Shown here: positions 7,661 through 10,985 of the stretch, in pieces
Layout of the letters: each line of letters opens with the position of its first letter
Numbering within the stretch: position 1 is the first letter of the stretch
Origin: Lobosporangium transversale
Lineage: Eukaryota
DNA: 64,000 nucleotides
Direction of reading: 5' to 3'
NCBI RefSeq assembly: GCF_002105155.1
Contig: NW_019029011.1
Span: 186,001 to 250,000, forward strand
Made by a program: the position numbers and the translations under genes
Notes under the pieces: model-generated
Seen by the model: only the letters and a program-made list of their open reading frames with translations
Told to the model about the DNA's origin: nothing
Databases searched by the model: none

Positions 7661-8697
7661 ATGGGGCTGAAGTCCTTCTTCAAACTGGTTGCAGATCGCG
7701 GGGTTTTACCTTCGGGAACTGACGTGGGCACTTTCTTGGCGGCAAATCCTGACCATTCTGTTCATGTAGATCTCCTCGGTACGTTCTATTACGACATCCT
7801 CTGCAGAGTCGTCCATGCAAAGATGAAAAACGAATCCATCATTGATGTAGGAAGGCCCCTGGCTCTCGAGATAAAGGATCTTTTCATGACGGACAATCTG
7901 ACTATACATATTGGTGGGGAACTTTGTACTCAAAAAGAAAAAGCAAGGACAGAGCGGCAAGCCATAAGACAAAAAAATATGGATGCTTTGGAGAACAATA
8001 TGAGCACCTTCGAGAGAAATTCTCGGAGTGGGGTATGGACTCGTCCTCAAGTCATGAGGCGCATCCAGAAGGGTCTTCGAGAAGTCCACACCCTGAGCGT
8101 CCAGGACAAAAATCAGCTGGCAACAGGCTTTGGCTCTGTCTTCGATGTCTGTCTGTGTGCATATGAAGCGGACCCATGCATAGGGTGCCATAATGAGGGG
8201 AATGATAGGATCGTGATATCCCAAGACTCTGATTTTTTTGCGTACGAACGAGTCTGCATCCTAGTGCGACCCCTTCCACACCGTAGACGGAAGTTTGGGG
8301 CTTACGATGTAGACAACGTTAGCCAAGCACTAAGACTGCCATCACACGAGCATCTGATATTATTCTGTGCCATCGCAGGCAATGACTACTCAAGGAACCT
8401 CGAGACGTTAGGCCCGATTAATAATCTTCGATTAATTCGAAACGTTGCGTGGAACGAGAACTACAATAAAATGCTTCGGGACTACCTGAGGGAAGCTATT
8501 AAGGTGTTGGGAAGGAACGCAGCCTCTGAAGAAGGCCGTTTCAGAGTAGCTCTCGGCACTTTTACTTCCGGCCATCAAACGTCGGCCCAAGCGTTACCAT
8601 CGAACAATGAGTTCGATAACTTCAAGCAACGTCTACTCAATGGAAAGGATCTTCGCCATAGAATGGTTCAGCAAAGGCGAGCGCAGCGCCGCAGAGC
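7661..8697 (+). CDS. FEN1/XPG-like PIN nuclease domain; exon 1 of a PIN-Fanzor fusion gene (open reading frame intact)
   Basis: MGLKSFF start, VHVDLLG, helical arch KEKARTER, YEADPCIG, ISQDSDFFAY and H3TH IAGNDY. It ends at a GTAAGA donor (8698). Confidence 0.82.
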
Positions 8698-8780
8698 GTA
8701 AGAAAGCTCAAGCTATAGTTTTAGCCTTGAAACCAAACGTCCCCAATACTAATCGTTAGTCAATTTCTTGGATAATGTAG

Positions 8781-9651
8781 AGACACACCATCATTCTATA
8801 TAGCGAAACATAGAAACCAGTTCCGGCCCATCTTTTCTGACAAGGCGAGCATATTGAAAGGGCGCACACTTGATATCAGTAAATGCCGTCAGCACGATAG
8901 GCCGGGCCTTAAGCATCCACCACGTCGGAGAAAGGCAAAAAAGAAGCAACAGAAAAAACAAAAGCGGAAGCACAAAGGCAAGAAGCCTCACAGGGCTAAA
9001 AAAGAAGGTGCACCAATTAGGAACTTGAAGGATGCTACGAAGGTTGATCACAGCTACAGCAGTAAGCACCCTATCAAGGCCTTAACAATTGGGTCCTCAA
9101 GGCTTCCATGGCAAGGAGAGGCGGACTGGACGCAAATGAAAGGGATAATATTGCAAGCCAGATCCGAGGGGCAGTTGTTGTCCTCAGCCGACTAAGCCGC
9201 TATGCATTATGCATACTGGGCGGTTGCCTTGGACATTGAGAGGATCATGCGGTTACCAGGGGCAGCAAGGTCGAGGAAAAAGGCACTGGACGAGGTCTTG
9301 GATAGCAATGACTATTCCTTCCGTCTCGCCACCCTCCTTTTAAGTGGTCAAGGTGGCCCCAATTCAGCTTACGCGAGGGCAAAAAACAAGGAAGGGTGGT
9401 AGAAACTCCCCATTATCTCCTCGCTTATGAACGTTTCAAGGCCACCACTGAACTTTCCCCAATAAAGGAAATAGACATCACATTGGGGGACGCGCAAGGC
9501 TTTGATCCCAAAAAGATCTCATTTCCAAGAGCGTCAGAGCTACTAATGGGCTAAGTACAGACATCATTAAGGCAGCACTACAGGAACGCAATGGTATAGC
9601 TTGTGTAGGGTATTTCATGCATATTCTGCAATCAAATGCTCTTTATTCAGA

Positions 9652-9682
<31 letters not shown>

Positions 9683-10985
9683 CTAGTTTGATGTCGAGAA
9701 AACAAACGAAGATATGAGCGACATTGAGTTTTTTTTGCGGGAGAACAAAAAAGTGAAAAAATACTCAGACTTTCCTACGTCCCCCTGGTCACCCGGGTAT
9801 GTGTATCTGTCTGAACACGCCCTAGTTGACATCCTCTGGGCGAACGAAGATACCAAGCAGCTGCTGGAGCGTATTCTGCCTCTCAACAATCCTTCCAAGA
9901 CTGCAATGTTTGAGTGTGTACAGGGAACAAAAGGGGTTTTGATACAGGCTCTCTTTTGTGACATTGGAGGTGATCGCATGGTATCGAGACAAAGTATCCC
10001 TGCAGTCGCAGGACAAAGATATAACTCGGTTCAAACTCAAAGGAACGATTTCTACCAACGGTCTAGTTCTGAATCTACTAGCCTATGATACAACCCAGAG
10101 GAAGAGACAGAAGCAGTCTGACGTAGATGAAGAAGACCTCAGCCAAGAACTGGAGCTTTCTCAGGGATTTCTCAACACGACGTGTTCAAAGGCAGCCGGT
10201 GAAGACCTGACAGATGAAGACTATGCAAACATAAACTGGAAGAGGAGCTCCAAACTGCTTGAAAACGTTGAGCTCACATTCAACGAGCCAGAGCGATGCC
10301 CATCCGCAAACACTACAACTATCGTCGGATGCGATCCTGGTATTGTTAACGCCCTTACGTTTTCCTCCCTGGATCCTCACAACCATAACTTGCGGCAAAC
10401 GGTAAAGGTGAGAAGCAGGTTCTTGTACCTCCCCGTCCTCCGCTTCAATCACCTGTTGAACAAAAGGAAGCGTGAAAAAGGAATGATTGAGGTTGAGAGC
10501 GCCATCCCTGTGTTTGGAAGGGATACGTACAATGAGTACTTTCAATGGATGAACGAGGAGTCCCAGACACAGATAGGATCAAAGAATTTGGATGTGCTTC
10601 AAGAGTTCTACGAGTCCAGATGGCACCTGAAAAAAAAATGGGACCTACGAAAGGCTCAGCGAGCTACGTTCGACTACGTGGTACAGCGAGTGTTGAAGAT
10701 GTTCGGGGAAAAAGGAGTGCTTGTCGTCGGCCTAGGATCCTTTGAAAGTAGTAAAGGAGTTCCCAGCAAGCGCTGTCCCCGACCCCTCTGTGATAGCTTT
10801 TAGAGATGGTGTACCCTCGCTCTAAATATTACCGGACATGTAAGGTATTCTTCGACCGTGACGCAGTAGGGGCGGAAAACATCGCAAGAATCGGTCTTGC
10901 TCAAATTGAGAGGCAAGAGAGACCTGCAAAGTACAAACCCCCGGAAGAGTCGGCTGCTCCGGGTGCAAAACGCGCACGACGCTAG
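8781..10985 (+). pseudogene. Fanzor (TnpB/Cas12-like RuvC + Zn finger) coding region; frameshifted, internally deleted, spliced to the upstream PIN exon
   Basis: LKGTISTNGLVLNLL; RuvC-I IVGCDPG (D at 10333); VVGLGSF; CPRPLC; after a frameshift at ~10800, YRTCKVFFDRDAVGAENIA (RuvC-III D at 10860); stop TAG 10983-10985. Intron at 9594-9686. Confidence 0.85.

What the first reader, a model, noticed from the sequence alone, without database searches (positions are those of the whole stretch)
7661..10985. FEN1/XPG-like PIN nuclease spliced in frame to a Fanzor (TnpB-like) RuvC nuclease: candidate two-nuclease RNA-guided system
Seen in sequence: the PIN ORF ends at GC|GTAAGA (8698). A branch-like TACTAAT and a TAG acceptor (8780) follow. 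Splicing continues the frame as ...RRA-DTPSFYIAKHRNQFRPIF..., through a very basic NLS-like linker (RRRKAKKKQQKKQKRKHK), into a region with IVGCDPG, VVGLGSF, CxxxxC...(Y)xxC and RDAVGAENIA. Established knowledge: DPG / E / RD..A.NI plus a Zn finger is the RuvC signature of TnpB/Fanzor RNA-guided nucleases, and MG.K / D / EAD / DSD / GNDY is the FEN1/XPG active-site layout. Inference: the ancestral protein of roughly 1,050-1,100 aa coupled RNA-guided cutting with 5'-flap or exonucleolytic processing, for example resecting the break to promote homing or repair from the element. I know of no characterised Fanzor with this fusion, but cannot check the literature here. The ORF track hides it because it is split across six fragments.
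Basis: partly seen in the sequence, partly recalled or inferred. Interest (0 to 1): 0.92.

Follow-up and report, generated by a model that had tools for sequence, protein, structure and literature searches.

The report
Fanzor with built-in flap nuclease
This is a broken copy of a repeated fungal DNA element whose intact relatives encode one protein joining a FEN1/EXO1-like DNA-trimming domain to a Fanzor-like, predicted RNA-guided DNA cutter, a pairing I found described in no paper searched, which likely cuts a target and trims the break so that the element gets copied in.

Summary
The fusion is real; this copy is dead. The gene at 7661-10985 is one spliced gene, PIN nuclease then Fanzor1. The 83-nt intron is skipped in a presumed RNA run. 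Uninterrupted relatives of 1,071-1,302 aa exist. A model of one (pLDDT 82.6) matches human EXO1 (Z 21.4) in its head and fungal Fanzor1 (Z 19.7) in the rest. Both active sites are 89-100% conserved in non-seed relatives. The gene lies in a repeated element (roughly 17 near-identical copies) with a sharp 3' end near 11122; I found no transposase or inverted repeats, and could not place the 5' end. This copy has frameshifts, a stop, a lost PIN aspartate and a deleted RuvC glutamate. The clade spans Mortierellaceae, chytrids and aphelids. Its sequences stand in Saito 2023's table as FZ1, mostly 'hypothetical protein', with no mention of the PIN domain. This scan noted a similar fusion before in smut fungi (unchecked). 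Likeliest mechanism, untested: guided cut plus 5' trimming that favours copying of the element. New variant of Fanzor1.

The parts
6000..7660 (+). 5' part of the repeated element, no coding match found; the true 5' end lies at or upstream of 6000 and was not placed
   Evidence: Depth 129-577 across the element against 9-9.5 on the unique flank in runs X2 and X3; no transposase family in six frames read through stops
7661..8697 (+). Exon 1: FEN1/EXO1/XPG-type PIN nuclease domain; catalytic Asp at codon 85 is Gly in this copy
8698..8780 (+). Intron 1, 83 nt, phase 2, GT-AG; if retained it gives an in-frame TAA right after the PIN domain
   Evidence: joint 8695-8786 with 7 letters between in presumed RNA run X7; same position and phase in L003 and in P0174 against P0175
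8781..9593 (+). Exon 2: basic linker (NLS-like), start of the Fanzor1 body; frameshifts near 9097, 9201 and 9386 and a stop at 9552-9554 in this copy
9594..9686 (+). Intron 2, 93 nt, phase 0
   Evidence: same position in L001 and L003; no cover at 9612 in X7
9687..10985 (+). 3' coding part: Fanzor1 WED, RuvC-I Asp (10333-10335), Gly at the canonical Glu site (10729-10731), zinc finger remnants, RuvC-III Asp (10860-10862); frameshifts near 9981 and 10797
10771..10810 (+). Site of a deletion in this copy that removed the alternative RuvC-II Glu motif and, by comparison with relatives, intron 3
   Evidence: 38 nt here against 200 in another copy; loose ends in X7 read the missing H-E-F-Y-T-S motif (my reading)
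10985..11026 (+). Candidate omega-RNA stem-loop just behind the stop codon (tentative)
   Evidence: 29 of 42 letters shared with L001 at its stop codon; reached by 0 of 500 shuffles and 2 of 323 other window pieces; folding z -0.67 here, -3.98 in L001
11027..11122 (+). 3' end of the element; the bases behind 11122 would be the guide of this copy (inferred)
   Evidence: Depth falls to single-copy level behind the bin 10914-11147; three X7 contigs diverge behind 11122
38117..40030 (+). Second, more decayed PIN-Fanzor copy of another subfamily
   Evidence: Family profile hits at 38333-38518 (iE 0.001, PIN part) and 39675-40022 (iE 6e-27); best matches P0145, P0136, P0100

Best explanation
This is a decayed copy of a repeated fungal element whose intact form encodes one protein of about 1,070 aa, a FEN1/EXO1-type nuclease domain fused in front of a Fanzor1, which likely uses a guide RNA from the element's 3' end to cut the empty site and likely trims the 5' ends of the break so that repair copies the element back in. 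Shown: one spliced gene, two folds, two conserved active sites, multicopy element with a sharp 3' end, dead state of this copy. From established knowledge of Fanzor1: omega-RNA at the right end, guide from the 3' flank, cutting next to a short AT-rich motif. Inferred: that the PIN domain acts on the Fanzor cut (5' exonuclease or flap cleavage), that this biases repair to homologous copying (homing), and that moves to new sites rely on a transposase encoded elsewhere.
For: One protein: P0005 (1,183 aa), P0175 (1,071 aa, on 6 contigs of at most 3,859 nt), P0092, P0149, P0152 are uninterrupted frames on short contigs; an Amoeboaphelidium row in Saito's table spans 3,360 nt for 1,119 aa, so has no intron. 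23 of 161 retrieved proteins cover both halves, 17 of them profile seeds. Folds: model pLDDT 82.6; residues 2-308 match EXO1 at Z 21.4, rmsd 3.2, 278 aligned; residues 435-1179 match PpFz1 at Z 19.7, rmsd 4.2, 472 aligned; top Foldseek hit SpuFz1 E 1.4e-11. Active sites in non-seed rows: PIN D 23/24, D 29/31, K 31/32, R 32/32, E 37/39, D 38/40, D 41/41, D 40/41, N 40/45, D 44/45; RuvC D 65/66, alternative E 46/48, D 47/48. The halves are inherited together: Mantel rho 0.66, 0 of 5,000 permutations, 15 proteins of median 23-26% identity. Mobile: single contigs inside the gene have depth 163-164 against 9-9.5 on the flank; five long near-identical proteins on five contigs in Linnemannia gamsii; a second copy in this window. 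Homing is the published model for OMEGA nucleases (PMC13565253). An engineered editor based on human EXO1 raised homology-directed repair over Cas9 (PMC11107001, abstract only).
Against: No activity was measured. The omega-RNA is only weakly supported: two sequences, no significant fold in the window copy, no Rfam match at gathering level. No transposase, terminal inverted repeat or target duplication was found, so the element that homing would restore is undefined, and the 5' end is unknown. The structure cannot tell EXO1 from FEN1 (Z within 1), so the substrate is open. The closest full-length relative (P0002/P0175) has Asn for one PIN aspartate and lacks a short stretch after the RuvC-II Gly, so even expressed copies may be impaired. 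25 of 161 retrieved proteins are PIN-only, several ending at the intron-1 position; these fit unspliced gene calls but also intron retention. The RNA status of X7 is a guess by the tool, and the spliced contig comes from a paralogous copy.
Confidence: 0.58

Rival explanations
1. The fused protein is itself the mobility enzyme of a transposase-free element: it cuts a new site that resembles a guide, trims it, and the trimmed end primes copying of the element from its 3' end, which would give fixed 3' ends and variable 5' ends.
For: No transposase or inverted repeat found in 2.1 kb upstream of this copy or 2.5 kb upstream of the second; sharp 3' end and about 17 near-identical copies; L004 holds a 99% identical piece of the L003 family that starts inside RuvC after unrelated sequence; Mucor MCi-2 Fanzor elements have variable 5' regions, shared 3' regions and no inverted repeats (PMC3627910 section 12).
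Against: Non-autonomous Fanzor1 elements without their own transposase are common (Spu-1, PMC10432273); a helper may lie elsewhere in a genome I could not search. L004 is one case and its contig ends before the 3' end. Many internal deletions exist in old copies, so truncation may be decay.
Confidence: 0.2
2. The PIN domain works on RNA or on the R-loop rather than on the break: it trims the long spliced transcript to release the omega-RNA, or removes the hybrid after cutting so that the enzyme turns over.
For: The candidate omega-RNA lies at the 3' end of an intron-containing transcript; that FEN-family nucleases can cut RNA at 5' flaps and in hybrids is recalled knowledge.
Against: Fanzor1 proteins without PIN load their omega-RNA in yeast (PMC10432273 section 7), so such help is not required; the closest folds are EXO1 and FEN1 bound to DNA.
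Confidence: 0.15
3. PIN and Fanzor are neighbouring genes, or the PIN-only product of intron retention is the functional one, and the long proteins are gene-model artefacts.
For: Retention of intron 1 puts a stop right after the PIN domain; 25 of 161 hits are PIN-only; one model (P0176) is visibly fused to an unrelated host gene.
Against: Uninterrupted frames on short contigs and an intronless aphelid gene; spliced joint in X7; no start codon or separate head is needed for exon 2, whose motif continues in frame in all full-length relatives.
Confidence: 0.04

Closest known systems
Fanzor1 (SpuFz1, PpFz1, GtFz1; PMC10432273, PMC11423790)
   Same: Same overall fold over about 470 residues, DPG RuvC-I, Gly at the canonical Glu site with the alternative Glu just before the zinc finger, RD RuvC-III; two of my hits are listed as FZ1 in Saito's table; repeated element with a non-coding 3' end.
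   Different: A 300-aa PIN nuclease with an intact active site sits in front; about 1,070-1,300 aa; no inverted repeats found, whereas Spu-1 has 30-nt ones; guided cutting untested.
EXO1 / FEN1 / XPG 5' nucleases
   Same: Fold (Z 20-21), N-terminal Gly, seven acidic sites and the Lys/Arg gateway spacing.
   Different: 15-17% identity; carried by a mobile element and fused to a Fanzor; not assignable to one subfamily; a host PIN-family gene in this window scores only iE 0.23 against the family profile.
TIR-less Mucor Fanzor1 elements MCi-2 and MCi-5 (PMC3627910)
   Same: Fungal, several kb long, Fanzor1 in a shared 3' region, no recognisable inverted repeats.
   Different: The section read mentions Crypton or Harbinger remnants and target duplications, none found here, and no PIN domain; I did not see their sequences.
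Engineered exonuclease-Cas editors (PMC11107001; others in the listing)
   Same: A 5' exonuclease joined to an RNA-guided nuclease; reported to raise homology-directed repair.
   Different: Artificial and Cas-based; here the pairing is natural, old and conserved.

Membership tests
Fanzor1 | RuvC-I Asp, rearranged RuvC-II Glu near the zinc finger, RuvC-III RD | tested here: met
   In intact relatives: D 65/66, Gly at canonical site 68/72, alternative E 46/48, D 47/48. The window copy itself has lost the Glu by deletion.
Fanzor1 | C4 zinc finger (TNB) | tested here: met
   Pfam PF07282 above cut-off in P0003-P0005 and P0175; three cysteines checked, 48/49, 49/50, 49/49
Fanzor1 | REC/WED/RuvC fold like solved Fz1 | tested here: met
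   PpFz1 Z 19.7, SpuFz1 Z 16.0 over about 470 residues; Foldseek E 1.4e-11; model is of relative P0005
Fanzor1 | Encoded in a eukaryotic repeated element | tested here: met
   Multicopy depth with sharp 3' end; second copy in window; several copies per genome
Fanzor1 | Omega-RNA at the right end with a variable guide | tested here: inconclusive
   Shared stem-loop in two loci only; variable flanks behind 11122; no small-RNA data
Fanzor1 | RNA-guided, TAM-dependent DNA cleavage | not testable with these tools
   Needs purified RNP
FEN1/EXO1/XPG 5' nuclease superfamily | PIN fold with helical arch and H2TH | tested here: met
   EXO1 Z 21.4, FEN1 Z 20.7; profile E 1e-12 to FEN1 chains
FEN1/EXO1/XPG 5' nuclease superfamily | Seven acidic active-site residues and basic gateway residues | tested here: met
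   94-100% in non-seed rows; aligned to archaeal FEN1. One Asp is Gly in the window copy.
FEN1/EXO1/XPG 5' nuclease superfamily | 5' flap or 5'-3' exonuclease activity | not testable with these tools
   Needs assay
Cut-and-paste DNA transposon with terminal inverted repeats | Terminal inverted repeats and target-site duplication | tested here: inconclusive
   Best inverted match at chance level (108 of 200 shuffles as good); only 7-mer matches; but the 5' end is unplaced and the copy is decayed
Cut-and-paste DNA transposon with terminal inverted repeats | Own transposase gene | tested here: inconclusive
   No transposase family in six frames of 5500-7660 or 35550-38118; a badly decayed gene could be missed
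Helitron | 3' hairpin followed by CTRR end (PMC3627910) | tested here: not met
   The inferred end at 11122 reads CAGATA

The most novel reading that the evidence does not exclude
PIN-Fanzor elements are a transposase-free class of eukaryotic mobile DNA in which one protein finds a site by RNA guide, cuts it, trims it and lets host repair copy the element in from its 3' end.
Probability: 0.2. Interest if true: 0.93.

Novelty: new variant of a known kind. Interest (0 to 1): 0.77.

Why it matters
Characterised Fanzors carry one nuclease. Here a large, old fungal clade keeps a second, unrelated nuclease with a full active site on the same chain. It offers a direct test of how Fanzors spread their elements in eukaryotes, which the papers read leave open: mutate one site or the other and read the repair outcome. 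It is also a natural counterpart of the exonuclease-Cas fusions that engineers built to favour homology-directed repair. The window copy itself is dead; the value lies in the family, whose intact members are named here.

Tried and rejected
No whole genome was held, so ends, flanks and helper transposases could not be surveyed. The 5' end of the element stayed unplaced. Word-based search with the PIN frame for longer proteins found nothing; single-sequence PDB searches with the RuvC frame and with P0005 found nothing; the profile did. The first structure job with 6 sequences was unusable (pLDDT 39.8). No relative in viral contigs with A1 or P0092. No RNA holder on record; X7 is only guessed to be RNA. 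No terminal repeats; the 7-mer inverted match at 6049 is at chance level. No Rfam family near its cut-off. Folding of 10930-11140 is no better than shuffles (z 0.77). Upstream regions of the two copies share nothing beyond short matches. I considered higher depth at the element ends as a sign of short non-autonomous copies and dropped it, since interior bins are as high. Weak profile matches to CdtB chains (E 0.09-0.2) were taken as chance. ESM Atlas gave only a Mucoromycota cluster named for the TNB domain.

Full report
Observation. The PIN frame starts at ATG 7661 and ends at the donor at 8698; the acceptor is TAG 8778-8780, the intron is 83 nt and exon 2 goes on in frame. The frame hits yeast Rad2 at E 1e-5. 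The 286-aa frame at 9943-10800 has no Pfam or PDB match alone but retrieves 6 longer proteins among 2,083 candidates; four carry Mortierella names and two come from Logan. One of them, P0002, tiles the window gene from the first codon to the RuvC-II region at 36-50% identity. The host is therefore likely a Mortierellaceae fungus (inference).

One gene. In run X7, which the tool guesses to be RNA, a contig joins 8695 to 8786 with 7 letters between, the length expected after removing the 83-nt intron; X7 has no cover at listed places inside introns 1 and 2, where the DNA runs do (the tables are cut, and the contig is from a paralogous copy). Metagenome loci keep intron 1 (L003), intron 2 (L001, L003) and a third intron (L001; donor only in L002) at the same places. 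In the cluster of P0002, a genomic call stops at the intron-1 position (P0174, 344 aa), while P0175 runs through as 1,071 aa on 6 contigs of at most 3,859 nt, most simply spliced transcripts. P0005, P0092, P0149 and P0152 are also uninterrupted on contigs of 4.0-4.9 kb. A full search with P0005 gave 832 representatives at E 0.001, of which 150 were listed. Of 161 proteins then held, 23 cover PIN and Fanzor parts (17 are seeds of the profile), 7 cover PIN and the junction, 25 PIN only and 106 little or no PIN; most are fragments or partial gene models.

Two folds, two active sites. The family profile matches FEN1, Rad2, XPG and EXO1 chains over positions 1-258 (best E 1e-12) and ApmFz2, SpuFz1 and TnpB/Cas12f chains near the end (7e-8, 1.5e-5). 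A model of P0005 from 148 sequences has mean pLDDT 82.6. Foldseek ranks SpuFz1 first and human FEN1 fifth. VIA-align gives EXO1 Z 21.4 (rmsd 3.2, 278 residues), FEN1 Z 20.7, PpFz1 Z 19.7 (rmsd 4.2, 472 residues); EXO1 and FEN1 are tied. In rows that were not profile seeds, the seven PIN acidic sites are 94-100% conserved, the gateway Lys and Arg 31/32 and 32/32, and the RuvC triad 65/66, 46/48 and 47/48, with Gly at the canonical Glu site in 68/72. That Gly and the shifted Glu are the Fanzor signature (PMC10530073, passages; PMC13565253, passages). Identities of the two halves correlate across 15 non-redundant full-length proteins chosen from 21 of 173 (rho 0.66, 0 of 5,000 permutations), and both trees share the main split; shallow nodes differ and are weakly supported. 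This shows a stable fusion, not co-evolution.

The element. Depth is high from 6000 to about 11147 and then falls to the single-copy level; three X7 contigs diverge behind 11122. Single contigs inside the gene have depth 162.7 (857 nt, X3) and 164 (X2) against 9.5 and 9.0 on the flank, which suggests about 17 near-identical copies; this is a rough reading, and the tool warns against depth as copy number. The window copy differs from them by many changes: PIN Asp85 to Gly, frameshifts near 9097, 9201, 9386, 9981 and 10797, a stop at 9552, and a deletion at 10771-10810 that takes out the RuvC Glu. It cannot encode a working protein. No transposase family was found upstream, and no inverted or direct terminal repeat above chance. 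The 5' end is unplaced. A 42-nt stretch behind the stop shares 29 letters with L001 and can form the same outer stem with a different inner stem; 0 of 500 shuffles but 2 of 323 other window pieces reach that score, and the window hairpin alone is not unusually stable. I call it a tentative omega-RNA piece. A second, more decayed copy of another subfamily lies at about 38117-40030. L. gamsii has five long near-identical proteins on five contigs.

Range and prior record. Named members come from Mortierella, Linnemannia, Podila, Entomortierella, Dissophora, Actinomortierella, Benniella and Modicella. In Supplementary Table 1 of Saito 2023 (PMC10432273), a motif search gave 39 places; of the 36 rows I saw, 27 are FZ1 rows that begin with PIN-like motifs by eye: 22 Mortierellaceae, 3 Amoeboaphelidium, 2 Synchytrium; 26 are labelled hypothetical protein and one carries an unrelated name. 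Two of my hits are in that table. One aphelid row spans 3,360 nt for 1,119 aa and so has no intron. That paper's main text has no 'fusion', 'fused' or 'exonuclease', and its searchable supplements no 'XPG' or 'FEN1' (one scanned file not searched). Library searches: Fanzor with XPG 0 papers, with Mortierella 0, with FEN1 3, with flap 21 (18 listed), with PIN 5, TnpB with 'PIN nuclease' 1; by title and start of abstract these are editing reviews or unrelated, and I did not open them. Broader searches listed none on such a fusion. Also seen: Yoon 2023 passages, Bao and Jurka 2013 passages and section 12, Jiang 2023 passages and a supplement search without hits, Kojima 2026 outline, passages and two sections, Matelska 2017 passages, Xu 2024 passages, Shi 2024 abstract, Saito section 7. 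Repbase, subscription journals and preprint supplements were not searchable, so an earlier mention is possible. Two earlier notes of this scan describe a like fusion in smut fungi; I did not check them.

Mechanism. Shown: architecture, conservation, multicopy element, dead copy. Established for Fanzor1: guide from the 3' flank and cutting at the empty site; homing is the current model for OMEGA nucleases, with direct evidence from bacterial ones. Inferred: the PIN domain trims the cut, which would favour homologous copying of the element; an engineered EXO1-based editor raises homology-directed repair. I give this 0.58. The bolder rival, copying to new sites without any transposase, fits the missing transposase, the fixed 3' end and one 5'-truncated recent piece (L004, 99% identical to L003), but a helper elsewhere in the genome is not excluded (0.2). 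A role in RNA or R-loop processing gets 0.15, separate genes 0.04.

Verdict. A real, broad and apparently unremarked variant of Fanzor1 that carries a second nuclease; member of Fanzor1 by sequence and fold, with guided cutting untested; interest 0.77.

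Noticed in passing
window 38117-40030 (+): Second, more decayed PIN-Fanzor copy of a different subfamily (closest to P0145, P0136, P0100); both copies share the 9-mer ACGCTAGAC near the end of the coding region.
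   Followed up: partly
window about 51304-53688 (-): Frames with XPG/FEN1-like motifs, probably a host 5' nuclease gene; only iE 0.23 against the family profile, so not an evident source of the fused domain.
   Followed up: partly
L004 3729-3936: Piece 99% identical to L003 that starts inside the RuvC region after unrelated sequence, with a short TTTCC similarity just before the junction.
   Followed up: partly
window 8698-8701: The phase-2 GTAA donor gives an in-frame stop if intron 1 is retained, here and in L003 and P0174; a PIN-only product is possible, though the usual donor consensus gives this by default.
   Followed up: partly
window 9978-10680 and 10997-11078: In presumed RNA run X7 the deepest contigs cover the 3' part of the gene, and one lacks the candidate hairpin (80 nt replaced by 17); contig depth cannot rank expression.
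   Followed up: no
window 6597-10996: Several related copies with long internal skips (6597-8100, 7024-9615, 10194-10996) exist in the DNA runs.
   Followed up: no
window 5007-5342 (-) and 12460-25543 (-): Host neighbours look like a UPS/PRELI-type gene and a Tra1/TRRAP-type gene (labels recalled from the translations, not searched).
   Followed up: no
P0176 (Mortierella alpina model, 3,300 aa): A PIN-Fanzor joined to a zf-C3H1/HAT-repeat host gene; probably a gene-model fusion.
   Followed up: partly
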